Shown: positions 17,125 to 48,945 of the stretch, piece after piece
Numbering within the stretch: the first letter of the stretch is position 1
Layout of the letters: the number at the start of each line of letters is the position of its first letter
Assembly (NCBI GenBank): GCA_028714535.1
Contig: JAQTME010000004.1
Span: forward strand, 7,319 to 71,318
Length of the DNA stretch: 64,000 nt
Direction: 5' to 3'
Origin: Candidatus Iainarchaeum sp.
GTDB lineage: Archaea > Micrarchaeota > Micrarchaeia > Anstonellales > Bilamarchaeaceae
Translations under genes and position numbers: made by a program
The notes under the pieces: model-generated
The model's input: only the letters and a program-made list of their open reading frames with translations
Databases searched by the model: none
What the model was told of the DNA's origin: nothing

Positions 17125-17255
17125 GGGGTTATGGCGTAATGTTGCAATGTCAACGCGCAGCCTGGTAGCGCGGCAGTCTCCAGATCTCTCCCGGCACGCG
17201 CCGGGAATTGTAGCCGCGAAAACTGCATGTCGGAGTTCAAATCTCCGTGACCCCA
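17125..17255 (+). tRNA. tRNA-Trp(CCA) with canonical anticodon-loop intron (~37 nt) and an apparent additional 21-nt insert between positions 9 and 10
   Basis: GGGGTTA-TG-[gcgtaatgttgcaatgtcaac]-GCGC-AGCCTGGTA-GCGC-G-GCAGT-CTCCAG[intron]A-ACTGC-ATGT-CGGAG-TTCAAAT-CTCCG-TGACCCC-A. All stems pair. Exon total is 73 nt. Confidence 0.7.
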
Positions 17256-17322
17256 ATTTGTTTTGCTAATTTTCGCTTGCGCGAAAATCGCAAAACCACT
17301 ATAAATAGGCAAAAGAAAAAAC

Positions 17323-30884: not shown

Positions 30885-30910
30885 TGCCGCCGGCCCGGCG
30901 GCATGGCAAA

Positions 30911-30923
30911 TCTTTTTAAACTA
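30911..30923 (+). promoter_or_regulatory. Pilin promoter box ATCTTTTTAAACT (copy 1); same motif at 31461-31473 for copy 2
   Basis: Conserved 10-13-mer at an equivalent distance upstream of both pilin ATGs. Confidence 0.55.
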
Positions 30924-30950
30924 GCCGGAGATTGCACTACGGTGAAATTA

Positions 30951-31406
30951 ATGATTAAGAAAGGACAAGTTTCGACAGAATATCTGGTCATATTGGCCAT
31001 AGTCCTCGTCGTTGCCCTCGTGGTCGTCTACCTGGTAGGCGGCTTCGCCGGCATGGGCGTAGGAACCATGGAAACCCAGAGCATGCAGGCATGGGGCACC
31101 GCGGCACCGCTCGCAATGACGAGCTGGAAGCAGAGCGGCACCTCGTTGCAGCTCGAGATTCAGAACAACGACGTAGACACGCTGGTCCTCACGGCTGTAT
31201 CCATGGACGGCGCATCGGTCGGCTTAGCGGCCAATACGACGTTCACGAGCGGCGAGAAGAAGGTAATCACTGTGACGACCGCGACAACCTGCGGCGCTGC
31301 AGGCACTGCGTTCACACACGAGAACGTGGTGCTCACCTACAACAAGGGCCAGATAACCGGCAAGACGCAGACCGGCGTGAGGCCCATTGTAGGCAAGTGC
31401 TCCTGA
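30951..31406 (+). CDS. Major pilin (class III signal peptide; Epd/Flp-like), copy 1
   Basis: MIKKGQVSTEYLVILAIVLVVALVVVYL. Conserved promoter box ATCTTTTTAAACT about 30 nt upstream. Followed by T-rich terminator. Confidence 0.75.
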   Translation: MIKKGQVSTEYLVILAIVLVVALVVVYLVGGFAGMGVGTMETQSMQAWGTAAPLAMTSWKQSGTSLQLEIQNNDVDTLVLTAVSMDGASVGLAANTTFTSGEKKVITVTTATTCGAAGTAFTHENVVLTYNKGQITGKTQTGVRPIVGKCS

Positions 31407-31504: not shown

Positions 31505-31954
31505 ATGTCAAAAGGACAGGTTTCAACGGAATATCTGGTCATACTGGCCATCGTCCTCGTCGTTGCCCTTGTGGTCGTCTACCTGGTAGGCGGCTTCGCC
31601 GGCATGGGCGCAGGGACCATGGAGACCCAGAGCATGCAGGCCTGGGGCACGGCGGCGCCGTTCGCCATCACCATCCTGAAGCAGAGCGGCACGACGCTGG
31701 AGCTGGAGATGAGGAATAACGACGTCAGCACCCTGGTCCTCACTGACATATCCATGGACGGCGCGTCCGTGTTCTCCTCGAACACCACGTTCACCAGCGG
31801 CGAGAAGAAGGTCGTGACCGCGACCGTGGTCACCGCATGCGGCGCTGCCGGCAGCGACTTCAGCCATCAGAACGTGATAATGACCTACAACAAGGGCCAG
31901 ATAACCGGCAAGACCCAGGTCGGCGCAAGGCCGCTCATGGGCAAGTGCTCCTGA
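31505..31954 (+). CDS. Major pilin (class III signal peptide), copy 2, tandem paralog of copy 1
   Basis: MSKGQVSTEYLVILAIVLVVALVVVYL. First ~110 nt nearly identical to copy 1 at the DNA level. Own promoter ATCTTTTTAACCT and SD GAGGGAG. Followed by hairpin GGGAGAA..TTCTCCC plus T-run. Confidence 0.75.
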   Translation: MSKGQVSTEYLVILAIVLVVALVVVYLVGGFAGMGAGTMETQSMQAWGTAAPFAITILKQSGTTLELEMRNNDVSTLVLTDISMDGASVFSSNTTFTSGEKKVVTATVVTACGAAGSDFSHQNVIMTYNKGQITGKTQVGARPLMGKCS

Positions 31955-35214: not shown

Positions 35215-35304
35215 AATGATCCCAATGAGAATCGATGACGAAGAAGAATGGGAAGACGACGACTTCGACGAGGAGGAGTGGGACGAGGAAGAAGAGGAAG
35301 AGTA
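35215..35304 (+). CDS. Micro-ORF encoding a 29-aa hyper-acidic peptide (MIPMRIDDEEEWEDDDFDEEEWDEEEEEE)
   Basis: ATG..TAG uninterrupted frame; 22 of 29 residues D/E, with two Trp. Lies between the HPRT promoter and a tRNA. No independent support. Confidence 0.25.
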
Positions 35305-35367
35305 GCCCCCGCCCTGTTTTTGCCTTTTAGAACAGTTTTTAATCCGCTTATCCTAATTTTCATCCAC

Positions 35368-35527
35368 GGGCCCGTGGCGCAGCCAGCCCTGCCTGCCGTT
35401 GTGAGCAGCCAGGGCCTGTTATGGATAGCGCAGCAGCCTTCTATTATGGGACGATGAAGCCCCGCCGGGGCGCATTTTCCCAAAAGGAGCAAGCTGACGG
35501 TCGTGGGTTCAAATCCCGCCGGGCCCG
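35368..35527 (+). tRNA. tRNA-Arg(TCT) with two introns: ~37-nt D-loop intron and ~48-nt anticodon-loop (37/38) intron
   Basis: GGGCCCG-TG-GCGC-AGCC[37 nt]TGGATA-GCGC-A-GCAGC-CTTCTA[48 nt]A-GCTGA-CGGTC-GTGGG-TTCAAAT-CCCGC-CGGGCCC-G. Exons sum to exactly 75 nt. Intron 1 forms helix-bulge-helix-like CCCTG.CTGC...GCAG..CAGGG. Confidence 0.65.
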
Positions 35528-36547
35528 TGAATACTTAAGCCGCACAGTAGGGGCTGGGGCGAAGTGAACGGAGTTCACAACGCACCGGGCCCGTTTTTGT
35601 TTCCCTAACTCGCGCCATAGGCGCTCGTGGGAAACGAGGCGATGCTGCCGGTTTTGTTTGGTGCTTTGCATCACATGAGGAGAAGCCCGACCGCCCAGGG
35701 GTAGCCCATGTGGGCCATCTCAAGGGCAACGTTGATGATGAACGTGTCCCTGTCAATCCTGTGGTCATGCTTGTAGCTCCACTCAGCCATGGCGTTGTGG
35801 ACCATCCGCACGCCGTTCCACTTCAGGTAGAATGTCTTGTGCCTGTTATAGAATTCCCGGTATCTCATGTTCACGAGCAGGCTGCGGCTGGCGACAAGCC
35901 TGCCTGCGACTTCCCTAATCTCGCCATATTCAAACAACGCGCTGGCCTCCGGGCTGAACAGGCCGTCGAGGCGCATCCTCATGCCTTTGGCGACCGCGCC
36001 TTCAATGTCGGCCAAGTCCGGCTGCCTGTCCCCGCTGAAACATGAAGTGATTGCCGTTTCGATGTCGTTTCCGATGAAATTGGCAGCCGCGGCCATGAGT
36101 ATGCTTCTCAGCGCCCCCTCCCTCGCCGCAGTGCACCGCTCCAGGTTGCTGGCAGCCCCGAGCGCGGCAGTCCAGAGCCTGCCCGTGCCCTTCGTCTCGT
36201 ATTCCATGGCCCATTTGAGCCGCCTATCCACCTTTTTCGCCACGCTCTTTTCGTATGTGAGCGGCAGGCCCATGTAAGCGGCCGTCTTGTATGCGCCGAA
36301 TGCCACGCATGCCCTTACCTTCATCCTCTGGGCCAGCGTCCCTTCGGGCACGGGCCTGAGCCCTCCCATCGCAAGAGTGATTGCCATGCAATTATGTTAA
36401 GTGCGACTATTTTAAAATCCGTGCCGGACGCAGGAAAGAGCCGGGCCCGATTTCCTTATCCCAGCCTTAAGGCCGTAGCTTGCCCTCAAGAGAATTCGGG
36501 CAAGAAGTGGGCGAGCAGGGCGAGGTCACATCGGGCCCGTTTTTGTT
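35519..36547. repeat. Four direct copies of the tRNA-Arg 3' terminus core CCGGGCCCG (at 35519, 35587, 36441 and 36533; two extended as CGGGCCCGTTTTTGTT), bracketing the 238-aa gene
   Basis: Exact 16-mer CGGGCCCGTTTTTGTT at 35586-35601 and 36532-36547. 9-mer CCGGGCCCG also at 36441-36449 and at the tRNA end. Confidence 0.65.
35671..36387 (-). CDS. Hypothetical alpha-helical protein, 238 aa, in lower-GC islet
   Basis: Long ORF with protein-like composition. Flanked by direct repeats CGGGCCCGTTTTTGTT. Confidence 0.5.
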   Translation of the reverse strand: MAITLAMGGLRPVPEGTLAQRMKVRACVAFGAYKTAAYMGLPLTYEKSVAKKVDRRLKWAMEYETKGTGRLWTAALGAASNLERCTAAREGALRSILMAAAANFIGNDIETAITSCFSGDRQPDLADIEGAVAKGMRMRLDGLFSPEASALFEYGEIREVAGRLVASRSLLVNMRYREFYNRHKTFYLKWNGVRMVHNAMAEWSYKHDHRIDRDTFIINVALEMAHMGYPWAVGLLLM

Positions 36548-36563
36548 CACTGGCCTGATTGTC

Positions 36564-37304
36564 TCAGTGTTTCTGTGCGCGGATGAGATCCTTGACTTTT
36601 CCCACGTCGGCGTCAGGGACTTCCGCCAACACTCCGAGCACATGGCGCGTTGTCAGATATGCAAAAATGCCATGATTGGCGAGAGTGTCACCGTATGCCT
36701 TGATGTTGCGGACCAGAAGGCCCACGTAGGCCCCCTCATCCCTATTCAGGTATCTGGAAGACGGGTGTTCGTACGCAAGTGCCTCATCGCCGCAGGGGAC
36801 GGTGGTTCCCCCATACGGAATGCCCCAGCCGGACTTGCCGGGGAATTCTGTGATCGGGATCAGCTTGTTTTCCAGGATATCCAGATAGATGCTTTTCCCT
36901 CCTTTCACGAAATTGGCAGAACTCAACCCAAAGGCGACAATCGCAATGTCTTTTTCATTCTTGTACGTGCCGGTCGCAAAAACAATATCCTGGCTGCCGG
37001 GGCTCTTAAAAACGATTTCGCTGCCGAATTTTGTGCCTGGTTTTTCGTAAGCGATGAAACCGTCGACCGCAAAAGGAGGCAGCTGCTTCCAAGCCGTGCT
37101 CCTGATATCGAGCAATTCGTTCGCCACTGTGTGTGACATGACAGTCAGCTTCGTTTCGTGCTTTTTGTTGAATCTTTCCACCATGGGGTGCGCGTCGAAA
37201 AGCCTGGTAGTATTGTCACCCCTGAGAACCAGGAAGTTTTTGCACTGGCGGTCTGAGAGCCTGAACGACGCTATCCTATCCCCATAAACCTGCTTTCTGG
37301 CCAA
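36564..37304 (-). CDS. Hypothetical protein, 246 aa, lowest-GC gene in the window (~50%)
   Basis: Preferred over the overlapping +strand ORF 36480-37136, whose product is Arg/Cys-rich and looks antisense. Confidence 0.5.
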   Translation of the reverse strand: MARKQVYGDRIASFRLSDRQCKNFLVLRGDNTTRLFDAHPMVERFNKKHETKLTVMSHTVANELLDIRSTAWKQLPPFAVDGFIAYEKPGTKFGSEIVFKSPGSQDIVFATGTYKNEKDIAIVAFGLSSANFVKGGKSIYLDILENKLIPITEFPGKSGWGIPYGGTTVPCGDEALAYEHPSSRYLNRDEGAYVGLLVRNIKAYGDTLANHGIFAYLTTRHVLGVLAEVPDADVGKVKDLIRAQKH

Positions 37305-37480
37305 AATATCACCTGAGCGCTATTGTTTGTTGAGTATCATGCAGCAATATACTTAAATATGTATCTTTTAACACAAAATGGCGGCGGAATGCCCGGTCAC
37401 GCGCCGCGCCGGTCATGCTTTTTAATATCTTGCCCCCCACATCACATCAGGAAACTGATTTTTCACATACGGTGATTGTC

Positions 37481-37726
37481 ATGGCCATGGAAGTGAAGGA
37501 CATAAGCAATATGGTGGAGACCCTGGTGAACGATAGCACCATCCCGAAGAACATACGCAAGGCGCTCCTGGAGGCGAAGACGCGGCTTGACAGCGGCGAG
37601 GACAAGGGAGTCAAGGTCAGCGCCGCCATCTACCTCATCGAGTCCATCAGCGACGACATCAACATGCCGTCACATGCGCGCACCCAGATATGGGCCATAA
37701 TGAGCGCCCTGGAATCCCTGGCCTGA
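37481..37726 (+). CDS. UPF0147-family small conserved archaeal protein
   Basis: ...PKNIRKALLEAKTRL...NMPSHARTQIWAIMSALESL matches the family hallmark (PRNIRRAA...MPxYARTxIWNI). Confidence 0.6.
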   Translation: MAMEVKDISNMVETLVNDSTIPKNIRKALLEAKTRLDSGEDKGVKVSAAIYLIESISDDINMPSHARTQIWAIMSALESLA

Positions 37727-37730
37727 TTCC

Positions 37731-39161
37731 ATGCTCGGCGAACTCGCGGAAAAGGGCGTGAGGGTGACCGTCGAGGCAGAAGAGCTCCTGAAATCAAGGG
37801 AGGCGGACCTGGAACTCATAGTGAAGCTCATCGGCCTGCAGAAGCCGCTGATTTCAAAGGAGGACGTGGAGTCGCTGCTGAAGCCGCCGGAGCTGCGGCC
37901 CGTGGAAGTGGTGCCGGCAGCGGCGTTCGCGCCGCTGGCGAAGGAATTCTCGTCCGATATAAGGCTCAACCACACCCTGGACGTGACAGGCAAGTCCCGC
38001 ACCAGGGGCGAGGTGGAGAACTTCATAAGCTATTTCCGCAACAGGTACGAGCGCCTGTCGCGCATGCTGCGCAGGAACGGCACCGTCCAGACCGACCTGG
38101 CGGACGTCCGGAAGCGCCTCAACGAGCGCGTCCGCGTGGTGGTGCTCATCTCGGACAAGAAGGAGACCAAGAAGGGCAACCTGCTTTTCGAGGTGGAGGA
38201 CATGACCGGCTCGTTCAAGGTCGTGGTCTCCCAGTCCAGGTACAACGAGAAGATACTCGACAAGGCGCGCGGCGTCATACTGGACGACGTGGTCGCCATA
38301 ACCGGCAAGGTGCTCGAGCCATACATCATAGCGGAGGAGATAGAATGGCCTGACCTGCCGGTGGTGCGCGAGAAGAGCCGCTCGGAGAACGACGTCGCCA
38401 CCGCCTACCTGTCGGACATCCATTTCGGCAGCAGGTATTTCCTCGAGAAGAAGCTCCAGTCCTTCGTCGAGTGGCTGCACGGCAGGGGCGAGGCCAGGGA
38501 ACTCGCCGGCAAGGTGAAATACCTGGTGATAGCCGGCGACGTGGTGGACGGCATAGGGGTCTACCCCAACCAGGAGAAGGAGCTGCTGGTCAAGGACATA
38601 CACCAGCAATACGCCATGTTCGACGATTTCATAGCCAGCCTGCCGGACTACATAGAGGTCATAGCAGCGCCCGGCAACCACGACGCGGTCCGCCGCGGCG
38701 AGCCCCAGCCGGCCCTTGGCAAGGACCTGGTTTCCTCTGACATTACCCTGGTCGGCAACCCGTCGTCCCTGTCGCTGGAGGGCGTGAAGCACCTGGTCTA
38801 CCACGGCACGTCCATCGACTCCATGATATCCAGCATCCCGGGCACGGCCTACGCGCACCCGGAGAAGGTGATGGTGGAATACCTGAAGCGGCGCCACCTC
38901 TCGCCGATATACGGCGGCAACCTGATAATCCCGGAGAACATAGACTACATGGTCATAGACGAGCCGCCGGACGTGTTCCACTGCGGCCACGTGCACAAGA
39001 ACGGGTACGTGCAGTACCGCAACACGCTGGTCATAAATTCGGGCACGTTCCAGGACCGGACGGATTTCCAGGTCAAGCAGGGCCACGTGCCCACCCCCGC
39101 GCTCGTCCCGGTGTATGAGATGAAGCACGGGCGCCTCCGCACCCTGGACTTCAACTACTAA
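37731..39161 (+). CDS. polB1: DNA polymerase II (PolD) small subunit DP1 (calcineurin-like phosphoesterase)
   Basis: VIAGDVVDG, GNHD, HCGHVH metallophosphatase motifs plus N-terminal DP1 domain. Confidence 0.8.
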   Translation: MLGELAEKGVRVTVEAEELLKSREADLELIVKLIGLQKPLISKEDVESLLKPPELRPVEVVPAAAFAPLAKEFSSDIRLNHTLDVTGKSRTRGEVENFISYFRNRYERLSRMLRRNGTVQTDLADVRKRLNERVRVVVLISDKKETKKGNLLFEVEDMTGSFKVVVSQSRYNEKILDKARGVILDDVVAITGKVLEPYIIAEEIEWPDLPVVREKSRSENDVATAYLSDIHFGSRYFLEKKLQSFVEWLHGRGEARELAGKVKYLVIAGDVVDGIGVYPNQEKELLVKDIHQQYAMFDDFIASLPDYIEVIAAPGNHDAVRRGEPQPALGKDLVSSDITLVGNPSSLSLEGVKHLVYHGTSIDSMISSIPGTAYAHPEKVMVEYLKRRHLSPIYGGNLIIPENIDYMVIDEPPDVFHCGHVHKNGYVQYRNTLVINSGTFQDRTDFQVKQGHVPTPALVPVYEMKHGRLRTLDFNY

Positions 39162-39249
39162 AAGCGCAGGTTGCGCCCGTAGGATAACTTTATAAATTTA
39201 AACCGCATATCCCGTGTAACGGTGAACCACGTTCATCAACGGTGATCGA

Positions 39250-39507
39250 ATGGCCAAATATCTTATAGCAAGGCAACTCTCTGGGAAAAAGATCGTGACC
39301 AATGACGGCGAGGACTTCGGAAGGCTTGTGGACCTCAATGTGAACGAGGTGAGCGGCAAGATAGAGACGCTCATAATCGAGCCCAACCCTGACAGCGAGA
39401 CGGCCTCGAAGATGAAAAGGGAAGACGGCATGGTGAATGTCGCCTATGAGAGCGTCCTCGCAGTAGGCGATTTCATAATCGTCGAAAAGAGGAACATGTC
39501 CTACTAA
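39250..39507 (+). CDS. PRC-barrel domain protein
   Basis: ...KIVTNDGEDFGRLVDLNVNEVSGKIETLIIEP... typical archaeal PRC barrel, 85 aa. Confidence 0.65.
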   Translation: MAKYLIARQLSGKKIVTNDGEDFGRLVDLNVNEVSGKIETLIIEPNPDSETASKMKREDGMVNVAYESVLAVGDFIIVEKRNMSY

Positions 39508-39512
39508 TTTTT

Positions 39513-40154
39513 ATGTTTTCCTATATCGCAGGCATCGACGAGGCAGGCCGGGGGCCGGTGATAGGGCCCCTTGTCGTCTGCTGCGCATTTTGCAACCGTG
39601 ACGACGAGAAGCTTCTCAGGAAATTCGCATCCAAGGATTCCAAGCAGCTCACTGCCGCGCAGCGCGAGGAGGCATACGCGAAATTGCGCTCGTTCTGCAC
39701 GTTCCGCTGGGTGGAGATAAGCGCGGCCGACCTGAACAAGCTGATGAAGAAGATGTCGCTGAACGACATAGAGGCCAAGGTCATGGCGGACCTGGCCAAG
39801 AAGCTGGACGAGAACAGCGACCTCATGATAGACATGCCAGACCGCTATTCCTGGACGTTCCGCAGGCGCATGGAGAAATTCGGCATAAAGCGGTTCGAGG
39901 CCGAGCACAAGGCCGACGAGAACTACCCCATAGTCGCCGCAGCGTCAATCTGCGCCAAGATAATCAGGGACCACAAGATAGACGAGATACGGGCTGCCAC
40001 GTGCGACTTCGGCAGCGGGTACCCGTCGGACCAGAAGACAATCGCCGCGCTCAAGGACAAGGCCAGGCTGGAGATGCTCCGCCCGTTCATCCGCGAGCGC
40101 TGGAAGACCCTGGACAACCTGAAACAACGGAAATTGTTCGAGGGCGAAGAGTAG
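39513..40154 (+). CDS. rnhB: Ribonuclease HII
   Basis: IAGIDEAGRGPVIGPLVV... catalytic DEAG motif. Confidence 0.85.
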   Translation: MFSYIAGIDEAGRGPVIGPLVVCCAFCNRDDEKLLRKFASKDSKQLTAAQREEAYAKLRSFCTFRWVEISAADLNKLMKKMSLNDIEAKVMADLAKKLDENSDLMIDMPDRYSWTFRRRMEKFGIKRFEAEHKADENYPIVAAASICAKIIRDHKIDEIRAATCDFGSGYPSDQKTIAALKDKARLEMLRPFIRERWKTLDNLKQRKLFEGEE

Positions 40155-40186
40155 CGGAAAGGGAAAATAAAGAAAAGATTTTTCCT

Positions 40187-40921
40187 TCAGCCCGTGCTGT
40201 TGCTCGTGACCACCACGCGGCCGGTCGCGGAGCGCTGCGTGGTCGAGTAGTACGTGCAGTCCATCTCCTGGCCGAGCGTGACCGTCGCCGCCTGGTTTAT
40301 CGCCAGCACGCGCGTGTCGAACACCTGCTTGCCTTCCAGGAAGCACGTCGCTGACATGGGGAAGGCGCCTGTGTTGGTGAAGGTTATGCTGTCGCCGACC
40401 TTCGCGTTGACCTCGGACGGCGTGTAGACGAAGCTGTTTATGGTCACTTCGTAGCTGGCAGGCACGTAGACCGCCGGCTTCTCGGACTCCACCGTGAACG
40501 AGACCGTCTTCTCGATCGCCGGGATATACTTCGTCCTGTCGTTGTTGAGCAGCTCGACCTTCACCGTGTGCGCGCCCGGCGCGAGGTTAGCCATGGTGTA
40601 GGTCCTGGTGCTCACCGTCGCGGGCTGGCCGTCATCCACGGTCACCCTGAAGTGGCCCTCGCCCTTCTTCGCAGCCCCTCCTGGCGGCTTGAGCGCCAGG
40701 TTCTGGTAGCTGAGCGTCAGCGTGACGTCGCCTGTGCTGCCGGCTATCGTTGCCACCTGCCCCGGCGTCGGGCTTGCGATGGTGAACGTCGGCGTCTTGA
40801 CGACCTCGACTGGCGCAGGCGTCTCGTTGGTGACGTTCTGCGCGGGCTGGCCCCCCAGTGTGCAGCCAAAAAGAAGGATGGATGCCATGACAAGTCCGAA
40901 CATGACGAGCTTCGGTTGCAT
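40187..40921 (-). CDS. Secreted lipoprotein with Ig-/cupredoxin-like beta-sandwich domains, hypothetical
   Basis: Signal plus LLFGC lipobox-like motif. Beta-rich repeats. Confidence 0.5.
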   Translation of the reverse strand: MQPKLVMFGLVMASILLFGCTLGGQPAQNVTNETPAPVEVVKTPTFTIASPTPGQVATIAGSTGDVTLTLSYQNLALKPPGGAAKKGEGHFRVTVDDGQPATVSTRTYTMANLAPGAHTVKVELLNNDRTKYIPAIEKTVSFTVESEKPAVYVPASYEVTINSFVYTPSEVNAKVGDSITFTNTGAFPMSATCFLEGKQVFDTRVLAINQAATVTLGQEMDCTYYSTTQRSATGRVVVTSNSTG

Positions 40922-40961
40922 TATGGTGCTTCTCCGGCTGGCTTAAAATACATATCGCCTC

Positions 40962-41612
40962 GTGATTATCCGCATGATAAAAGGCGTCCTTTTCGACTTC
41001 GACGGCGTGGTGGTCCAGTCCGAAGCCCTCCACAAGGAGACCTTCCTGGAGCTGCTCGCGCCCTACGGCGTTTCCGTGTCAGAGGAACGCTGGTACAGGG
41101 AGTTCGCAGGGACCGGCTCGCGGCACATATTCGAAACGCTCGTCAGGGAGAACGGCATAAAGGCCGACGTGGGCGCGCTGGTCGAGCAGCGCAAGAGTAT
41201 ATACGAGGCGCGGGTGCGCCAGGGCGCGCTGAAAGAAACGCCGGGCGTGCGCGAGTTCCTCTCGCTGCTCAGGAAAAAGGGCATAAAGACCGCAATCGTG
41301 TCAGGGAGCCACAGGAGCAACGTCGCCGCAGCCCTGTCCGTGCTCCATCTGGGCGGCCTTTTCGACGTGATAGTCAGCGGCGACGACCTGGCCGAGAGGA
41401 AGCCGTCGCCAGCGCCGTTCCTGCACGCCGCGAAGCTGCTCGGCCTGAAGCCGCAGGACTGCGTGGCGGTGGAGGACTCTGTGTCCGGCTGCGCCTCCGC
41501 GAAAGCCGCGGGCATGCGCCTCGTCGTCGTCCAATCCCCCGCGAGCAAGGATTTATATGGCTACGATGCGATAATAGATGACTTTTCGGAGTTTCCGCTC
41601 GGGATGTTTTGA
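40962..41612 (+). CDS. HAD-superfamily hydrolase (beta-phosphoglucomutase-like subfamily)
   Basis: Motif I FDFDGVV, motif III K, motif IV GDDLAER...VEDSVSG. Confidence 0.75.
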   Translation: MIIRMIKGVLFDFDGVVVQSEALHKETFLELLAPYGVSVSEERWYREFAGTGSRHIFETLVRENGIKADVGALVEQRKSIYEARVRQGALKETPGVREFLSLLRKKGIKTAIVSGSHRSNVAAALSVLHLGGLFDVIVSGDDLAERKPSPAPFLHAAKLLGLKPQDCVAVEDSVSGCASAKAAGMRLVVVQSPASKDLYGYDAIIDDFSEFPLGMF

Positions 41613-41613
41613 C

Positions 41614-42789
41614 ATGATTAAGCTTGAGCTGGACCGGAAAAAGCGCTCTCTGTCCGTGAAGGAGCCGGCCGACGTCTCCTCGCTGCAGAACGGCTTTTAC
41701 GGCCAGATGAAGAAAGGGATAATATACCTCGCCCCAGAGGAAGCGCTCTACATAATGGACATAAGGAACGGGCGCTGCTTCGACGAGGTGGGCAACGAAT
41801 ACTCCTTCAATTCGGTCGCCGCGCTGTTCCTGAAGATAAAGAAGCTGCTGGCCCGCTACCTCACGTATAAGGACTATCGCGACAAGGGGCTGATACTCCG
41901 CGATGCGAAAGAGGCGGAAGGCGGCTACGGGCGCACGGTGCTCAAGAAATACGCGGGCGGCTCGTTCAAGTTCGACTCGTTCGCCTTCGAAGGGCTTTTC
42001 TTCCCGCAGGACTTATTGACGCTGGTCGACGACGAGAAGGTTGGCAAGGAACTCTACGAGCGGTATTGGATAGGCCAGTTCGGCACCTACAAGGCTGCGC
42101 ACCGCGGCCGCATATCCAAGCTGGACGTGTATGAGACGATTTTCCTGCTCAAGCACGGCGGCCTGCACCTTACGAATGCGAAGCTGCACGACGTCGAGAA
42201 GACGGCGCGCAAGCGCATAAAGTTCTTCGACGACATGTACCTCGTCTACGAGGACTGGAGGCGCAGGGGCTACGTGGTCAAGACCGGCTTCAAGTTCGGC
42301 ACCCATTTCAGGATATACTTCCCGGGCGCGTCGCCCGTCCGCGCAGAGGACGAATGGATGCACTCCAGGCACGTGATACACAACTTCCCCAGGAAGCACA
42401 AGCTGCTCATCTCGGAATGGGCGCGCGCCATCCGCGTGGCGCACAGCGTGAAGAAGACGTTCATACTGGCGATTCCGGGCAAGAAGGCCGCCATAAAGGT
42501 CGACCCGAAGAAGCCGCGGCTTGACTTCCTGCTCTACCACCGCCGCAAGGACGGCATAGAGACGCCGAAGGACGGCACGCCGCGCTACCTGATGTACTCG
42601 CTCACCGAGGACGAATATATCGGCGGCGAGGGGCTGGCCGAGGCGCTCGCGGAGGCCAGGCATTACGGCCTGGAGATGATGATGGCCATAAGCGACAGGG
42701 AGAGCAGCGTCACATACTACATAATCAAGGAGATCGAGCTCCCGGGGAGCGAATACGAGTACTATGAAATTGAGTGGTTGCAACCTTAG
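41614..42789 (+). CDS. endA: tRNA-splicing endonuclease with two tandem EndA-like units (alpha2/epsilon2-type architecture), 391 aa
   Basis: C-terminal catalytic unit GYVVKTGFKFGTHFRIY...HSRHV...K. Upstream degenerate repeat unit. Start chosen at MIKLELD just after the HAD stop. Confidence 0.65.
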   Translation: MIKLELDRKKRSLSVKEPADVSSLQNGFYGQMKKGIIYLAPEEALYIMDIRNGRCFDEVGNEYSFNSVAALFLKIKKLLARYLTYKDYRDKGLILRDAKEAEGGYGRTVLKKYAGGSFKFDSFAFEGLFFPQDLLTLVDDEKVGKELYERYWIGQFGTYKAAHRGRISKLDVYETIFLLKHGGLHLTNAKLHDVEKTARKRIKFFDDMYLVYEDWRRRGYVVKTGFKFGTHFRIYFPGASPVRAEDEWMHSRHVIHNFPRKHKLLISEWARAIRVAHSVKKTFILAIPGKKAAIKVDPKKPRLDFLLYHRRKDGIETPKDGTPRYLMYSLTEDEYIGGEGLAEALAEARHYGLEMMMAISDRESSVTYYIIKEIELPGSEYEYYEIEWLQP

Positions 42790-42852
42790 CAACCACTGCC
42801 GGCCAAAAGCAGCGCTTTTGACGGTCGAATGATACAACCATGGGTGAATGAC

Positions 42853-43128
42853 ATGCCGATAAGAGCGAGCCATATACTGGTGAAGGACGAGCAGGCGGCC
42901 AAGAAGCTGCTTTACGAGCTCCAGGCAGGGGCGAACTTCGCGATGCTGGCGAAGAAGCACTCCATGTGCCCGAGCGCCGAGCAGGGCGGGGACCTGGGCT
43001 TCTTCGACAAGGGGCAGATGGTGAAGGAATTCGAGGATGCGGCGTTCTCCGCGTCGGTCGGCGTTCCCGTCGGCCCTGTGAAGACGCAGTTCGGCTACCA
43101 CCTCATCCTGGTGACCGCCAAAAGGTAG
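42853..43128 (+). CDS. Parvulin-type (PpiC) peptidyl-prolyl cis-trans isomerase
   Basis: IRASHILVKDE...GGDLGFF..GQMVKEFEDAAF...GYHLILV. Confidence 0.75.
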   Translation: MPIRASHILVKDEQAAKKLLYELQAGANFAMLAKKHSMCPSAEQGGDLGFFDKGQMVKEFEDAAFSASVGVPVGPVKTQFGYHLILVTAKR

Positions 43129-43212
43129 GATTTACGCCGTAAAACCTCTTGTTTACCTGCCAAAACACAACCGATAGCCTTTTAATGTATTTGTTTCATA
43201 AATTGTATTGGT

Positions 43213-43806
43213 GTGTATATGGGATGGGTAAAATCCGCTTCAATACTTTTCATGCTGCTCTGCTCCAGCTTCGCCGCCATACTCGAATCAGGCGATTCTG
43301 GCGTGCAGTTCGCTGCTGACGTCTCGGCCGCCAAGTGCGCCGAGGCAGGCGTGCAGGCGGTTTACCTGTGCTCAGGCAACGTCGTGCGCGTGGTTTCCGC
43401 CGACGGCAGCGCGTTCTACAAGCCGGAAGGCAAGATAGTGCGCTGCGCCAACGTGGCCCCGTCGCAGATGGGCGCCGAGTGCATGCAGATGATGACCCCG
43501 AACTACTGCCCTGTCAAGGCCGACTGCGGCGTGTCCAACGCCACCGCGACCTTCCCCGGCAACACCACCAACGCTTCCACGGCGCAGGTAAGGGACCTCA
43601 GTTCGCCTTCTGTGCCGGCAGTCACGCCTGTGAAGGCGTCCGCCAAGCCCCTTGCAGAATCAAAGAAAACCGACATCGTCATACCTGCTGCGGCTCCGAG
43701 CTCGTTCGAGTTCTCCATGGACTCGCTCGCCATAGTCGTGCTCCTGCTGGGCGCGGTTTCGGTCGGCGTGCTGTTCACGATGTTCAAGAACAGCATATCG
43801 GAGTAA
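43213..43806 (+). CDS. Secreted protein with C-terminal TM anchor, hypothetical
   Basis: Signal ASILFMLLCSSFAAILE. C-terminal LAIVVLLLGAVSVGVLFTMF plus short tail. Confidence 0.5.
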   Translation: MYMGWVKSASILFMLLCSSFAAILESGDSGVQFAADVSAAKCAEAGVQAVYLCSGNVVRVVSADGSAFYKPEGKIVRCANVAPSQMGAECMQMMTPNYCPVKADCGVSNATATFPGNTTNASTAQVRDLSSPSVPAVTPVKASAKPLAESKKTDIVIPAAAPSSFEFSMDSLAIVVLLLGAVSVGVLFTMFKNSISE

Positions 43807-43875
43807 ATCCCCTTTTTCCGCTTTATTTTCCAGCGCCAGCGATGCCTATTTATACCTCATTCCAGAACTCCCCCC

Positions 43876-46434
43876 ATGAACGGCAAGAGCCCCCCCGTCC
43901 TGAGCAGCCAGGAGCTGGTATGCCTGCCGATGAAGGAACTGCTGTCCAGGCTGGGCGCCTCGGTTGACGGCCTGAGTGCCAAGGACGCCCACAAGCACCT
44001 CCACCTGTACGGACATAACGAGCTGGCCAAAAAGGAGAGGAAATCGCCCATACTGGCGTTTTTGGCGTATTTCAACAACCCGCTCATCCTCATCCTGCTC
44101 GCCGCAGGCGCAGTGGCAGGGTTCCTCGGCGAGATTGTCGAGGCAATCACCATATTCATCATGGTCCTGCTCAGCGTGGTCCTGAGCTTCGTGCAGGAGC
44201 ACCGCGCGGAACGGGCCGCAGAGGACCTCAGGAAGCGCGTGGCGACCACCGCCACCGTCCTCAGGGACGGCGTGAAGCACGAGATCCACCTCAACACCAT
44301 CGTCCCAGGCGACGTCGTCTTCCTCTCCGCAGGCGACATCGTGCCTGCGGACGCGCGCATAATCGAGGCAAAGGACCTGTTCGTGGACCAGGCGGCGCTC
44401 ACGGGCGAATCCTTTCCCGCGGAGAAGCAGCCTGAGCCGCTGAAGAGCGACTGCGTGGCAGAGGTCACGGAATGGAGGAACTACCTGTTCATGGGCACGT
44501 CCGTCGTGAGCGGGACCGCGACCGCGCTCATAGTGCGCACTGGCGGCCGGACCCAATACGGCGAGACAGTGAAGCTGGCCATGGAGAAGCGGCCTGAGAC
44601 CGAGTTCGACCGCGGGCTGAGGCAGTTCGGCTACCTCATCATGCAGGTGACCATCATCCTGGTGGTGTTCGTCTTCATAGTCCTCGCGCTGCTCAAGCAC
44701 GACGTGCTGGAATCGGTGCTGTTCGCGCTGGCGCTTGCAGTCGGGCTGACGCCAGAACTGCTGCCCATGATAGTGTCCATAAACCTGTCCATGGGCGCGG
44801 TCGCCATGTCAGGGAAGAAGGTCATCGTGAAGCGGCTCTCCTCAATCCACAACTTCGGCGCCATGGACGTGCTCTGCTCTGACAAGACAGGCACGCTCAC
44901 CGAGAACCGCGTGACGCTCATCATGCACGTGGACCTGAAAGGCAAGGACAATGCCAGGGTGCTTGAATACTCCTTCGTCAACAGCGCCTTCCAGACCGCG
45001 GTGAAAAGCCCGCTGGACCTGGCGGTCATGGCCCATGACAAGAAGGTTGATGCGTCGGGCTACAGGAAGATAGACGAAATCCCTTTCGACTTCAACCGCA
45101 GGCGCAGTTCCGTCGTCGCCTGGAAGGGGAAGCAGAAGCTGCTCATAACCAAGGGCGCGCCAGAGGACATAGCGAAGGTGTGCGACCGTTACGAGCTGGA
45201 GGGGAAGGTTTCCACCCTGACCGGCAAGGTGAGGGCTGCCATGGACGGCAAATACAGGCAGATGAGCATGGACGGCTACCGCGTGCTGGGCATCTGCTGC
45301 AAGGAAGTGGACGGCGGCAGGCTCACCGCCAGGGACGAGCAGAGCATGACCTTCCTGGGCTTCATAGCGTTCATAGACCCGCCCAAAGCGAGCGCGCGCG
45401 AGGCCGTCGACGAGCTGGAGCGGGACGGCATAATGTTCAAGATACTGACCGGCGACAGCGACCTGGTCACCAGGAAGACGTGCGAGCAGCTCGGCATAAG
45501 GATAACCGGCCTCGTGACCGGCGCCGATGTCTCCGCCCTGAACGACGACGCGCTCGCCCGCGTGGTGGAGAAGGCCAACATATTCGCGCGCGTGACGCCC
45601 GCGCAGAAGAACCGCATACTCCACGCGCTGAAAGGCAACAACCACGTGGTCGGGTTTTTGGGCGACGGAATAAACGACGCGCCGTCCATGCGCGTCGCGG
45701 ACGTGAGCATGTCGGTTGAGAACGCAGTGGACGTTGCTAAGGAATCCGCCGACATCATATTATTGCAGAAGGACCTGCGCGTGCTCGAGCAGGGCGTGCT
45801 CGAGGGCAGGAAGACGTTTGGCAACACGATGAAATACATCATGATGGGCGTCAGCTCCAACTTCGGCAACATGCTCTCCGTGGCCGTCGGCTCGCTGTTC
45901 CTGCCGTTCCTGCCCATGCTTCCCATACAGATTTTGCTGAACAACCTGCTCTACGACTTCTCCGAGACCACGATTCCCACCGACAACGTGGACAAGGAGT
46001 ACATCCAGAAGCCCCGCCGCATGAAGGTGGAATACATACGCAGGTTCATGCTGTTCTTCGGCCCGATAAGCTCCATCTTCGACATCCTGACCTACCTGGT
46101 CATGCTTTTCGTGTTCAATGCCACGGCGCCCGTGTTCCAGACCGCCTGGTTCGTCGAGTCGCTCTGCACGCAGACGCTTATCATATTCGCCATAAGGACG
46201 AGGAGGATACCGTTCCTGTCCAGCCTGCCCAGCGTGCCCCTGGCGCTGAGCAGCATCGGCGTGGTCGCGCTTACGCTGATACTGCCGTTCACGCCGCTCG
46301 CTGCGGTCTTCGAGTTCGCAGTCCTGCCGGTGCAGTTCTTCGCCATCCTCGCAGGGTTCGTGGTCGCCTACCTCATCCTGGTGGAAATGATGAAATGGTG
46401 GTTCTACAGGAAATACGCAGAGCTCGCGGAATGA
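43876..46434 (+). CDS. mgtA: Mg2+-importing P-type ATPase (MgtA family)
   Basis: DKTGTLT, TGDS, GDGINDAPSM, N-terminal HLHLYGHNEL. About 10 TM helices. Confidence 0.8.
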   Translation: MNGKSPPVLSSQELVCLPMKELLSRLGASVDGLSAKDAHKHLHLYGHNELAKKERKSPILAFLAYFNNPLILILLAAGAVAGFLGEIVEAITIFIMVLLSVVLSFVQEHRAERAAEDLRKRVATTATVLRDGVKHEIHLNTIVPGDVVFLSAGDIVPADARIIEAKDLFVDQAALTGESFPAEKQPEPLKSDCVAEVTEWRNYLFMGTSVVSGTATALIVRTGGRTQYGETVKLAMEKRPETEFDRGLRQFGYLIMQVTIILVVFVFIVLALLKHDVLESVLFALALAVGLTPELLPMIVSINLSMGAVAMSGKKVIVKRLSSIHNFGAMDVLCSDKTGTLTENRVTLIMHVDLKGKDNARVLEYSFVNSAFQTAVKSPLDLAVMAHDKKVDASGYRKIDEIPFDFNRRRSSVVAWKGKQKLLITKGAPEDIAKVCDRYELEGKVSTLTGKVRAAMDGKYRQMSMDGYRVLGICCKEVDGGRLTARDEQSMTFLGFIAFIDPPKASAREAVDELERDGIMFKILTGDSDLVTRKTCEQLGIRITGLVTGADVSALNDDALARVVEKANIFARVTPAQKNRILHALKGNNHVVGFLGDGINDAPSMRVADVSMSVENAVDVAKESADIILLQKDLRVLEQGVLEGRKTFGNTMKYIMMGVSSNFGNMLSVAVGSLFLPFLPMLPIQILLNNLLYDFSETTIPTDNVDKEYIQKPRRMKVEYIRRFMLFFGPISSIFDILTYLVMLFVFNATAPVFQTAWFVESLCTQTLIIFAIRTRRIPFLSSLPSVPLALSSIGVVALTLILPFTPLAAVFEFAVLPVQFFAILAGFVVAYLILVEMMKWWFYRKYAELAE

Positions 46435-46486
46435 GTTAGAAAAAAAGAAAGGGCCGATGGTGGCCGGCCCGGGAAAACATGAAAAA

Positions 46487-46720
46487 TCAGACGACGATGA
46501 TTCCGTGCACCAGGCAACGCGGTTTCCCGCTGTTGCCTGCAGCGAATGTCTGCTGCGGCGTCTTTCCGCCGTATTCAAGTTCCGTCCAGGGCCTGTTCTG
46601 GCTCCTGTCAAATGCGCCCGGCAATCTTGCATGGCCGTTGTGCCTTGCCCTTATCGTTTCCTCACGCCTTTGGATCGCTATCTGCTGCTTTGTTAATGGT
46701 CTCAAGTCGTAGCATACCAT
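46487..46720 (-). CDS. Small hypothetical protein (77 aa) with own TATA box
   Basis: ORF preceded about 40 nt upstream by TTTATATATA and a 14-bp palindrome ATTCCTATAGGAAT. No recognisable family. Confidence 0.3.
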   Translation of the reverse strand: MVCYDLRPLTKQQIAIQRREETIRARHNGHARLPGAFDRSQNRPWTELEYGGKTPQQTFAAGNSGKPRCLVHGIIVV

Positions 46721-46998
46721 CTGTAATCACCTGTTAATCCATTCTGGAAATTCCGCTATTTATATATTTCTGACAAAAATATTCCTATAGGAATATCAAG
46801 AAGGCGGCTTACGGCACTGGATGTCGTGCTCATGGAAAACGGGCCAGTTGTGAAATCCGCGGATTTCACTTCCGTCCCGATTCTCGTGAGGGCTGGCGCC
46901 AAGGCTGAAGCTAATGATGAGGAGAATCGGGCCCGGTGCGTTCATGGACGGCGATCCGTCCATGTGCACCCGGCCCTAACGTGCTGCTTATGTCTTCA

Positions 46999-47073
46999 CG
47001 GGCCCGGTGAGATTTGAACTCACGACCTTCGTCTTAGGAGGACGTCGCTCTATCCAAGCTGAGCTACGAGCCC
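46999..47073 (-). tRNA. tRNA-Arg(CCT), intron-less
   Basis: GGGCTCG-TA-GCTC-AGCTTGGATA-GAGC-G-ACGTC-CTCCTAA-GACGA-AGGTC-GTGAG-TTCAAAT-CTCAC-CGGGCCC-G. TATA GTTTATAAATTC about 30 nt upstream. Confidence 0.8.
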
Positions 47074-48711: not shown

Positions 48712-48773
48712 AAGGAACCTCTGGTGGATTGCTAATATATTCCTATCTCCGTTTCGTCTAAACGAGAATAAAA

Positions 48774-48945
48774 TGGGCCTGCGGAGATTAGTTCGAACCT
48801 TTTGAGATTCAGTTTTTGGTGCAGCTTTTCCCAAAAAGGTGCATTGAACTCCGGACCTACGGCTTTCCTAGGTCGCCAGTCGTACAGACTGTATTAGAAC
48901 GTGTCATATAAGACCGTCGCTCTAACCGAGCTGAGCTACAGGCCC
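48774..48945 (-). tRNA. tRNA with anticodon TAT (Ile-UAU-like) carrying two introns: 42-nt anticodon-loop (37/38) and 55-nt T-loop (58/59) intron
   Basis: GGGCCTG-TA-GCTC-AGCTCGGTTA-GAGC-G-ACGGT-CTTATA[42]A-GCCGT-AGGTC-CGGAG-TTCAA[55]AT-CTCCG-CAGGCCC-A. Exon lengths sum to exactly 75 nt and all stems pair. Confidence 0.6.

What the first reader, a model, noticed from the sequence alone, without database searches (positions are those of the whole stretch)
35519..37304. Direct repeats of the tRNA-Arg 3' end bracket a lower-GC islet of two uncharacterised genes
The palindromic core CGGGCCCG of the tRNA 3' terminus recurs three more times downstream, twice extended as the exact 16-mer CGGGCCCGTTTTTGTT flanking the 238-aa gene. 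The two genes (238 and 246 aa, no recognisable family) have visibly lower GC than their surroundings (about 50-55% versus about 65%). The pattern resembles nested att-site duplications left by integrative elements targeting a tRNA gene, with cargo that could be defence or toxin-like. No integrase gene remains, so these would be remnants.
Basis: partly seen in the sequence, partly recalled or inferred. Interest (0 to 1): 0.55.

Follow-up and report, generated by a model that had tools for sequence, protein, structure and literature searches.

The report
Gene-insertion hot spot behind tRNA-Arg
In this DPANN archaeon the repeated CGGGCCCG motifs are the ends of small conserved hairpin modules that trail tRNA-Arg genes, and the stretch they mark is a recombination hot spot where two lineage-specific genes of unknown function were inserted; it is not a clear remnant of an integrated virus or plasmid.

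Summary
An intron-split tRNA-Arg(UCU), missed by ARAGORN and by Rfam at its gathering threshold, ends in CGGGCCCG. That 8-mer recurs three times downstream, twice as the exact 16-mer CGGGCCCGTTTTTGTT flanking the 238-aa gene.

- **The 16-mer.** It is the tRNA's last 8 nt plus its oligo-T terminator.
- **The downstream copies.** Each is the 3' end of a conserved, hairpin-forming trailer module (A or B). The same modules follow the window's second tRNA-Arg(CCU) with no cargo, and follow tRNAs in related metagenomes.
- **Module A.** It mimics the tRNA's acceptor/T-stem minihelix.
- **Module B.** It shows compensatory base changes across 13 copies.

In 15 related loci the tRNA-Arg to UPF0147 gap is 26-1426 nt; here it is 1953 nt.
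- **Gene 1.** Normal GC, dN/dS about 0.5, shared with two to three close relatives, and bracketed by tRNA-end copies.
- **Gene 2.** It has the lowest GC3 in the window and is absent at this site in all relatives. It is not bracketed, and it belongs to a widespread uncharacterised family seen in DPANN genomes.

No integrase, mobile-element, defence or toxin signature was found. The two inverted tRNA-Arg genes also bound a recurrent 11.5-kb inversion. Module function remains unknown.

The parts
35368..35527 (+). tRNA-Arg(UCU) gene with two introns (35385-35421 in the D-loop; 35444-35491 at position 37/38). Its 3' end is CCGGGCCCG, which is acceptor positions 66-72 plus discriminator G.
   Evidence: Not called. 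The spliced sequence is called tRNA-Arg(tct) by ARAGORN. Sub-threshold Rfam tRNA hit. BHB central helices CUUC/GGAG and GCAG/CUGU read from the sequence. The orthologous intron-containing gene lies at the same place in relatives.
35528..35593 (+). Trailer module A: a 23-nt linker followed by a hairpin (35551-35592). The hairpin's 3' strand copies a tRNA-Arg 3' end (CCU-type, ...GCACCGGGCCCG) and its 5' strand copies acceptor 1-7 plus T-stem 49-51. This copy has an imperfect middle stem.
   Evidence: Homologous to the trailer of tRNA-Arg(CCU), E 1e-16. Folds on its own with z = -3.6. Copies also in L044, L018 and L023.
35586..35601 (+). First copy of the 16-mer CGGGCCCGTTTTTGTT, which is the end of module A plus an oligo-T terminator.
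   Evidence: GGCCCGTTTTTGTT is also found at module ends in L001/2, L023, L024 and L054/55.
35599..35636 (.). Hairpin H (GTTTCCC...GGGAAAC), lying between two T-runs in the tRNA terminator region and the gene-1 3' region.
   Evidence: Read from the sequence. Conserved in L001 with compensatory changes GCGCC/GGCGC to GTGCC/GGCAC.
35671..36387 (-). Gene 1, 238 aa. Predicted all-alpha, no known family. TATA-like TTTTAAAATA at 36408-36417, about 26 nt upstream of the ATG (an inferred leaderless promoter).
   Evidence: Only two homologues (72-77% identity), always next to UPF0147. dN/dS 0.42-0.51. GC3 0.79. AF2 pLDDT 51 and no fold match.
36440..36449 (+). Exact copy of the tRNA's last 10 nt (GCCGGGCCCG). 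It is the right boundary of the gene-1 segment and the 5' boundary of module B.
   Evidence: The same boundary occurs in L003.
36442..36539 (+). Trailer module B, a degenerate copy in which hairpin P2 is lost.
   Evidence: Homologous to module B of the CCU locus. Covariance-model hit of 89 bits. The fold lacks P2.
36532..36547 (+). Second copy of the 16-mer, which is the end of module B plus an oligo-T terminator.
   Evidence: GGCCCGTTTTTGTTCAATGG in L054 nearly matches GGCCCGTTTTTGTTCACTGG here.
36564..37304 (-). Gene 2, 246 aa. TTG start preceded by AGGTGAT. A low-GC3 member of a widespread uncharacterised family.
   Evidence: Homologues and family size: (412 clusters with E <= 1e-3). GC3 0.64. 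Absent at this site in every relative examined.
36454..37411 (.). Segment with no counterpart in the close relatives L001/L002 (module B body, terminator, and the gene-2 cassette).
37481..37726 (+). UPF0147 gene, the conserved right-hand anchor of the variable interval. The PolD small subunit (DP1) follows at 37731-39161.
46999..47073 (-). tRNA-Arg(CCU), inverted relative to the UCU gene.
46836..46998 (-). Intact modules A (46998-46928) and B (46935-46840), then TTTT. They are contiguous and carry no cargo.
   Evidence: The same tRNA-A-B order occurs in MAG locus L044.

Best explanation
**What the repeats are.** CGGGCCCG is the palindromic 3' acceptor end of the archaeal tRNA-Arg genes. In this Iainarchaeum-like DPANN lineage, tRNA genes are often followed by one to several short trailer modules.
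- Module A is a linker plus a hairpin that reproduces the tRNA's own acceptor/T-stem minihelix.
- Module B is a hairpin (P1) formed by the tRNA end plus its trailer, then a second hairpin (P2), then another copy of the tRNA end.
- Every module ends in a copy of the last 6-13 nt of the tRNA. The last copy is followed by the tRNA's oligo-T terminator, which is why the exact 16-mer appears twice.

**How the locus works.** These reiterated tRNA-end/terminator copies make the interval between tRNA-Arg and UPF0147-DP1 a recombination hot spot. Single-gene cassettes, always on the strand opposite the tRNA, are inserted, lost or swapped there.

**The inversion.** The 11.5-kb segment between the two inverted tRNA-Arg genes flips between relatives.

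**State of this window.**
- Gene 1 arrived first. It is shared with close relatives, bracketed by tRNA-end copies, and came with a CCU-type module A.
- Gene 2 is a later, separate acquisition of a divergent family member.

**Shown versus inferred.** Shown: the anatomy, the conservation and covariation of the modules, the empty sites, the inversion, and the composition. Inferred: that recombination at the repeated copies did the inserting (by a trans-acting site-specific recombinase or by short homology), and that the modules act as RNA in pre-tRNA 3' processing or termination.
For: **Anatomy**
- The trailers of the two tRNA-Arg genes are homologous.
- Module A copies fold alone into the same linker-plus-minihelix shape, with z scores of -3.6 to -6.4. 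The middle stem covaries with each genome's tRNA: GGUGC/GCACC, GACGC/GCGUC and GAGGC/GCCUC.
- Module B: 13 copies with E < 1e-5, all directly 3' of tRNAs or of another module. Pairing is 91.6%, and 9 of 20 pairs show double changes. The covariation score is 0.272 against 0.120 in shuffles (0 of 500 shuffles reach it), and slid controls score far lower.
- Copies behind a tRNA ending in ...CCCA end in CCCA and carry an internal UGGG.

**Hot spot**
- tRNA-to-UPF0147 spacing is 26-177 nt in 9 relatives, 367-1426 nt in 6, and 1953 nt here.
- The cargo differs between loci (gene 1; 180 aa in L015; 161 aa in L013; 219 aa in L033; 187 aa in L001) and is always on the opposite strand.
- Cargo is bracketed by tRNA-end copies in the window, L003 and L033.

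**Inversion and turnover**
- Both configurations are seen in relatives. Module A at the UCU locus carries the CCU-type CAC signature.
- Module turnover is fast among close relatives of the CCU locus.

**Composition and selection:**
Against: - No recombinase was identified, so the agent of insertion is unknown.
- Gene 2 and the L015 cargo lack a second bracketing copy.
- The structure counts come from an alignment fitted to the model.
- G·U (4) versus A·C (6) mismatches give no strand asymmetry, so RNA-level function is not demonstrated.
- Modules are patchy even among close relatives, and the two copies in this islet are degenerate. That fits selfish or decaying DNA as well as a functional RNA.
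- All comparison loci are metagenome contigs or MAGs, and no transcript data exist.
Confidence: 0.55

Rival explanations
1. The copies are attL/attR duplications left by successive integrations of viruses or plasmids into tRNA-Arg. The elements then decayed, leaving two cargo genes and no integrase.
For: - Empty sites in relatives.
- Exact 10-nt and 16-nt direct repeats bracket gene 1. A 36-nt repeat does so in L003, and bracketing also occurs in L033.
- The uniform orientation of six different cargo genes suggests directional insertion.
- Gene 2 has low GC3.
- Archaeal integrases prefer tRNA 3' ends, tRNA-Arg(TCT) is a favoured target, and att can be as short as 13 bp (PMC8371274).
- Integrase-driven inversions between tRNA genes are known (PMC5495485).
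Against: - No integrase fragment or mobile-element hallmark was seen in the variants examined.
- The copies are parts of conserved modules present without cargo and behind another tRNA.
- Precise excision leaves no 60-100-nt scar, and independent deletions would not give the same module boundaries.
- IMG/VR scans for modules A and B gave only chance hits.
- Gene 2 is not bracketed, and in the two family members examined its relatives lie among ordinary chromosomal genes.
Confidence: 0.25
2. The modules are small selfish repeats (MITE- or REP-like) that home to tRNA 3' ends and duplicate the target. The cargo genes are unrelated insertions nearby.
For: - Patchy presence among close relatives.
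- Tandem arrays in L044 and L024.
- Degenerate copies in this islet.
- A terminal copy that always matches the local tRNA end would be what target duplication produces.
- Extra perfect hairpins are inserted into some copies.
Against: - No terminal inverted repeats.
- No copy seen away from a tRNA or module end in about 400 kb searched.
- The internal complement of the tRNA end also tracks the tRNA, which target duplication cannot produce.
- No transposase is associated. The IS200-type gene in L001 has unrelated ends.
Confidence: 0.15
3. The repeats are only generic terminator motifs or a chance recurrence of a GC-rich palindrome.
For: - The TTTTTGTT half is a terminator-type T-run that also follows tRNA ends in relatives.
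- In 100 shuffles the 8-mer reached 8 matches once.
Against: - Seven of the eight copies sit at the two tRNA-Arg loci, and none follows any other gene in the window.
- The surrounding 66-100 nt are homologous between loci and genomes.
Confidence: 0.03
4. Modules A and B are 3'-terminal tRNA introns, removed by the splicing endonuclease so that the last copy becomes the mature 3' end.
For: - This genome has many non-canonical tRNA introns and a 403-aa EndA.
- The terminator follows the last copy rather than the tRNA body.
Against: - A bulge-helix-bulge search found no consistent motif at module borders. However, the strict version of that search also failed to list the two genuine introns, so it is a weak test.
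- The palindrome gives an uninterrupted 8-bp helix without bulges.
- The tRNA is already complete without the modules.
Confidence: 0.02

Closest known systems
tRNA-gene integration sites of archaeal tyrosine-recombinase elements (SSV-type, pT26-2/pTN3-type and SNJ2-type integrases; attL/attR direct repeats; tRNA gene fragments)
   Same: - The site is the 3' end of a tRNA gene, and tRNA-Arg(UCU) is a favoured target.
- Direct repeats of the tRNA end bracket strain-specific genes.
- Relatives have empty sites.
- Inversions have tRNA genes at their breakpoints (PMC8371274, PMC5495485, PMC9897764).
   Different: - No integrase, whole or split, and no other element genes.
- The units are single genes of about 0.9 kb.
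- The identity blocks are 10-16 nt and lie mostly at or after the discriminator base.
- The repeated copies belong to conserved structured modules that exist without any cargo.
Recombinase-less small gene modules flanked by short host-recombinase sites, such as the pdif/Xer modules of Acinetobacter plasmids and integron cassettes with attC (from my own knowledge; not tested here)
   Same: Single-gene cassettes in uniform orientation, bounded by short structured or palindromic sites, with no recombinase inside the module.
   Different: - No XerA/dif-like 11-6-11 site and no IntI were identified.
- The site here is derived from a tRNA 3' end.
- Only one or two cassettes occur per locus.
tRNA acceptor/T-arm minihelices and tRNA-like processing signals, which are substrates of RNase P, tRNase Z and the CCA-adding enzyme (from my own knowledge)
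   Same: - Module A's hairpin reproduces acceptor positions 1-7/66-72 and the first T-stem pairs of the resident tRNA.
- It has an unpaired discriminator base.
- It sits in the same transcription unit, before the T-run.
   Different: - One internal mismatch.
- The T-loop is replaced by a variable hairpin.
- No evidence of processing or CCA addition.
- No Rfam family matches.

Membership tests
Integrated mobile element at a tRNA gene (att-flanked island) | A direct repeat of part of the tRNA gene at both borders of the inserted DNA. | tested here: met
   GCCGGGCCCG at 35518-35527 and 36440-36449. The 16-mer at 35586 and 36532. This holds for gene 1 only; gene 2 has no right-hand copy.
Integrated mobile element at a tRNA gene (att-flanked island) | An integrase/recombinase gene, intact or split at the borders, or other element hallmark genes. 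| tested here: not met
   - Both proteins and three cargo proteins of relatives have no Pfam, NCBIfam, PHROG or PADLOC match.
- No other ORF of 60 aa or more with coding signals lies in 35528-37480.
- The gene-1 model has no fold match, but the model is low-confidence.
Integrated mobile element at a tRNA gene (att-flanked island) | Unoccupied site in related genomes. | tested here: met
   26-177 nt between tRNA-Arg and UPF0147 in 9 relatives. L026 has the tRNA, module B and UPF0147 only.
Integrated mobile element at a tRNA gene (att-flanked island) | Composition different from the host genome. | tested here: inconclusive
   Gene 2 has GC3 0.64, the lowest in the window. Gene 1 has GC3 0.79, which is normal.
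Integrated mobile element at a tRNA gene (att-flanked island) | A matching attP on a free virus or plasmid. | tested here: not met
   Two IMG/VR pattern scans for modules A and B gave only unrelated chance hits. This was an exact-pattern search only, so distant elements would be missed.
Oligo-T (archaeal) transcription terminator | A T-run directly after the 3' end of the transcribed RNA gene, of a type seen at other genes. | tested here: met
   TTTTTGTT follows the last tRNA-end copy. T-runs follow tRNA ends in L007, L008, L010, L011 and L029. The CGGGCCCG half is not generic.
Archaeal BHB tRNA intron | Two 3-nt bulges separated by a 4-bp helix at the two borders. | tested here: not met
   - Met for the two introns inside the tRNA, by hand.
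- Not met at the borders of modules A or B in seven loci.
- That strict script also missed the two genuine introns, so the negative result is weak.
MITE / IS200-IS605-derived palindromic element | Terminal inverted repeats or subterminal hairpins, with copies dispersed at many target sites. | tested here: not met
   No terminal inverted repeats in the sequences. All 13 strong covariance-model hits are directly 3' of tRNAs or of another module.
Any described RNA family (Rfam 15) | A covariance-model match. | tested here: not met
   Nothing for modules A or B at the gathering threshold or at E <= 5.
Defence or toxin-antitoxin system | A match to known defence or TA protein families, or a two-gene operon architecture. 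| tested here: not met
   - No PADLOC or Pfam match.
- The two genes have separate promoters and different histories: gene 2 is absent where gene 1 is present.

The most novel reading that the evidence does not exclude
The trailer modules would be a previously undescribed class of tRNA-linked RNA elements in DPANN archaea. They are acceptor-stem/minihelix mimics that co-evolve with the tRNA they follow, are co-transcribed with it, and are handled by the tRNA-end machinery (RNase P, tRNase Z, CCA-adding enzyme). Possible roles are as processing or termination devices, or as decoys for tRNA-targeting integrases or nucleases. As a side effect they would create a cassette-capturing, invertible hot spot.
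Probability: 0.25. Interest if true: 0.7.

Novelty: new variant of a known kind. Interest (0 to 1): 0.45.

Why it matters
tRNA genes are the classic landing sites for mobile DNA, and short tRNA-end repeats are routinely read as att scars. Here the repeats instead belong to conserved, covarying hairpin modules that copy the acceptor end of the tRNA they follow.

If these modules are functional RNAs, they add a new element to archaeal tRNA gene anatomy, in a lineage already known for extreme tRNA gene disruption. Even if they are not functional, they explain three things. Tiny DPANN genomes can shuffle single ORFan genes at this site. An 11.5-kb segment flips between relatives. And intron-split tRNAs with their trailers are invisible to standard annotation.

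Tried and rejected
1. **Standard tRNA finders.** ARAGORN (with and without its intron option) and Rfam at gathering threshold do not find the UCU tRNA. It was resolved by manual splicing.
2. **Structure prediction.**
   - Both proteins had only three-sequence alignments and gave poor models: pLDDT 51 and 36.
   - Foldseek against the PDB for gene 1 gave nothing with E < 0.8.
3. **Protein family searches.** The gene-2 family profile against PDB sequences and Pfam found nothing. PADLOC, PHROGs and NCBIfam found nothing significant for five cargo proteins; PHROGs gave only marginal matches with E about 0.05.
4. **Module A/B patterns in IMG/VR.** Chance matches only.
5. **Modules as BHB introns.** No consistent motif at the borders, though the strict script also missed the genuine introns.
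6. **Modules as C/D-box sRNAs, K-turns, integron attC sites, casposon or MITE ends, or IS200/IS605 ends.** All were checked by eye against the sequences, and the defining boxes or terminal repeats are absent.
7. **A protein reading of modules A/B on the opposite strand.** A 63-codon ORF exists at the CCU locus. I rejected it because an indel breaks the frame between the two loci.
8. **G·U versus A·C asymmetry as a way to assign the functional strand.** Uninformative, 4 versus 6.
9. **An apparent dN/dS of 2.9 for UPF0147.** This was my own frame error. With the correct frame it is 0.06-0.11.
10. **The σ70/hairpin terminator scan.** It does not flag the modules because their loops are too long.
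Full report
**Source and setting.** Both ORFs match, at 100% identity, hypothetical proteins of a MAG named Candidatus Iainarchaeum sp., a DPANN archaeon. The window is 60.4% GC. It carries archaeal markers next to the finding: UPF0147, the PolD small subunit (DP1), aCPSF1 and a 403-aa tRNA-splicing endonuclease.

**The observation.**
- CGGGCCCG occurs 8 times against 3.25 expected. Seven copies lie at two places: 35367/35520/35586/36442/36532 and 46928/46999.
- The 16-mer CGGGCCCGTTTTTGTT is exact at 35586 and 36532.
It is nevertheless real.
- 35368-35527 is a tRNA-Arg(UCU) with a 37-nt D-loop intron and a 48-nt intron at position 37/38.
- Both introns have bulge-helix-bulge geometry, read: central helices GCAG/CUGU and CUUC/GGAG.
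- The spliced 75-mer is called tRNA-Arg(tct).
- The GC claim holds only for gene 2 (52.6% GC, GC3 0.64, the lowest among ORFs with a coding-like GC3 pattern). Gene 1 is ordinary (60.0% GC, GC3 0.79).

**What the repeats are.** The window's second tRNA-Arg (CCU, 46999-47073, minus strand) is followed by the same kind of sequence.
- BLAST aligns its trailer to the UCU locus in two blocks. Module A (about 66-71 nt) aligns to 35528-35593 with E 1e-16. Module B (about 98 nt) aligns to 36442-36547 with E 2e-8.
- At the CCU locus the order is tRNA-A-B-TTTT with nothing in between.
- At the UCU locus it is tRNA-A-TTTTTGTT-[hairpin H, gene 1, its promoter]-B-TTTTTGTT-gene 2.
- Every CGGGCCCG downstream of a tRNA is therefore the last 8 nt of a module.
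- The T-run after it is the tRNA's terminator. T-runs directly follow the tRNA end in relatives that lack modules. GGCCCGTTTTTGTT recurs at module ends in L001/2, L023, L024 and L054/55.

**Module A.**
- Five copies (window ×2, L044, L018, L023) fold on their own into one shape: a 22-23-nt leader, then a long hairpin GGGCC / one mismatch / 5 bp / internal loop / variable stem-loop. Their z scores are -3.6 to -6.4.
- The 3' strand is a copy of the tRNA's T-stem end plus acceptor strand plus discriminator. The 5' strand equals acceptor positions 1-7 fused to T-stem positions 49-51.
- The 5-bp stem changes together with the resident tRNA: GGUGC/GCACC, GACGC/GCGUC and GAGGC/GCCUC.
- The apical stems share no sequence, but each is perfectly paired. 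In the L044 and L018 copies the stem is closed by GAAA and UUCG.
- This is a mimic of the tRNA's acceptor/T-arm minihelix.

**Module B.**
- A covariance model built from seven copies finds 13 copies with E < 1e-5 in about 400 kb of related loci. All are directly 3' of a tRNA or of another module.
- Pairing is 91.6%. Nine of 20 pairs show changes on both sides. The covariation score is 0.272 against 0.120 in shuffles (0 of 500 reach it), and slid controls are far lower. The caveat is that the alignment was fitted to the model.
- Copies behind a different tRNA (3' end ...GGCCCA; anticodon UAU by eye) end in ...CCCA and carry an internal UGGG instead of CGGG. The module therefore tracks the tRNA it follows.
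- L054 has a compensatory P2 stem (GUGGAAUCC/GAUUCCAC).
- Tandem arrays occur in L044 and L024.
- Turnover is fast. At the CCU locus, a relative at 92% identity in the adjacent Asn-synthase-like gene keeps only the P1 hairpin, and one at 90% has no module.
- In the islet itself both modules are degenerate: A has an imperfect middle stem and B has lost P2.
- No Rfam family matches either module.
- G·U versus A·C counts (4 versus 6) do not tell which strand is selected, or whether the selection acts on RNA at all.

**The locus in relatives.**
- Thirty DP1-anchored metagenome loci, plus loci found through the two proteins and through the Asn-synthase-like neighbour of tRNA(CCU), give the context.
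- The conserved order is aCPSF1, a phosphoribosyltransferase (PRT), small acidic-peptide ORFs, tRNA-Arg, UPF0147, DP1.
- The tRNA-to-UPF0147 gap is 26-177 nt in nine loci, 367-1426 nt in six, and 1953 nt here, the largest.
- L026 is the closest relative with this region on its contig (DP1 85% identical). It has tRNA-B-UPF0147 only.
- Other loci hold unrelated ORFans: 180 aa in L015, 161 aa in L013, a 219-aa secreted protein in L033, and 187 aa plus an IS200-type transposase in L001.
- All six different cargo genes lie on the strand opposite the tRNA.

**Gene 1.**
- It has only two homologues (72-77% identity), always next to UPF0147.
- Its dN/dS is 0.42-0.51, against 0.06-0.25 for its neighbours.
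- Relative to L026, the gene-1 segment (35528-36449, 922 nt) is bracketed by exact copies of the tRNA's last 10 nt.
- In L003 gene 1 is bracketed by a 36-nt repeat with 2 mismatches, made of the tRNA end plus the first 27 nt of B.
- In L033 a different cargo gene is bracketed by GTCGGGCTCG|TTTTT and GCGGGCCCG|TTTTTT.

**Gene 2.**
- Gene 2 and the B body (36454-37411) have no counterpart in L001/L002. Gene 2 has no right-hand repeat.
- It is a divergent member (at most 45% identity) of a family with 412 clusters at E <= 1e-3.
- In two other DPANN genomes its relatives lie among housekeeping genes.

**Inversion.**
- Relatives show two arrangements. One is PRT-tRNA(UCU)-UPF0147-DP1...EndA...tRNA(CCU, inverted)-AsnS, as in the window and at least ten loci. 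The other is AsnS-tRNA(CCU)-UPF0147-DP1, as in L008, L009, L053, L003 and L033.
- This is what recombination between the two inverted tRNA-Arg genes, 11.5 kb apart here, would produce.
- It also explains why module A at the UCU locus carries the CCU-type ...CACCGGGCCCG end.
- Integrase-driven inversions between tRNA genes are documented in Thermococcus (PMC5495485).

**Function of the proteins.** Unknown.
- There are no Pfam, NCBIfam, PADLOC or PHROG matches, and for the gene-2 family no PDB sequence matches.
- AF2 models are poor: gene 1 is predicted all-alpha with pLDDT 51, and gene 2 mostly beta with pLDDT 36.
- Foldseek found nothing for gene 1.
- Both genes have plausible archaeal expression signals, read. 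Gene 1 has a TATA-like box about 26 nt upstream of its ATG. Gene 2 has AGGTGAT before its TTG start.

**Verdict.**
- The data do not show decayed proviruses. They show reiterated tRNA-end copies that belong to conserved trailer modules, and a hot spot around them where single genes come and go and a segment inverts.
- Whether a trans-acting recombinase uses these copies as att sites remains open. Short archaeal att sites exist (13 bp for SNJ2), and tRNA-Arg(TCT) is a favoured target (PMC8371274).
- What the modules do, if anything, also remains open. RNA-seq and wider genome scans could settle both questions.

Noticed in passing
window 48767-48945 (-) and about 17125-17255 (+): Two more multi-intron tRNA genes that ARAGORN and Rfam do not report. 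By eye, one has anticodon UAU with introns after position 37 and in the T-loop. The other looks like tRNA-Trp(CCA), with a D-arm intron and an anticodon-loop intron.
   Followed up: partly
window 35368-47073; loci L008, L009, L053, L003, L033 versus L010-L013, L015, L018, L026: The roughly 11.5-kb segment between the two inverted tRNA-Arg genes (UPF0147, DP1, RNase HII, EndA and others) occurs in both orientations among relatives. This is a recurrent inversion with tRNA-Arg 3' regions as breakpoints.
   Followed up: yes
window 35216-35305 (+); L010, L011, L012, L013, L015, L019, L028: A 29-aa extremely acidic ORF (MIPMRIDDEEEWEDDDFDEEEWDEEEEEE) with an AAGGTG ribosome-binding site lies just upstream of tRNA-Arg. 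It is conserved in relatives in one to three tandem copies.
   Followed up: no
window 17250-17300; D-loop introns of tRNA-Arg in L010, L011, L015; tRNA flanks in L028, L044, L018: A family of near-perfect hairpins of the type GTTTTGC-TAATTTTCGC...GCGAAAAT-CGCAAAAC, along with many other 8-10-bp perfect hairpins. They occur both right after tRNA genes and inside tRNA introns and trailer modules of this lineage.
   Followed up: no
L044 636-882 (-) and L024 1-180: Tandem arrays of near-identical B-type modules behind a tRNA: three or more units, each ending in a copy of the tRNA 3' end plus a T-run.
   Followed up: partly
L001 1695-2147: An IS200/IS605-type Y1 transposase and a 187-aa ORFan lie next to the gene-1 homologue, in place of the tRNA. 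The IS ends are unrelated to modules A and B.
   Followed up: partly
window 41578-42789 (+): The tRNA-splicing endonuclease is unusually long (403 aa, with two catalytic-domain matches). That fits the many non-canonical tRNA introns seen here.
   Followed up: no
window 30903-31406 and 31505-31954 (+): Two tandem paralogous genes with identical class-III (pilin/archaellin-like) signal peptides (KGQVSTEYLVILAIVLVVALVVVYLVGG).
   Followed up: no
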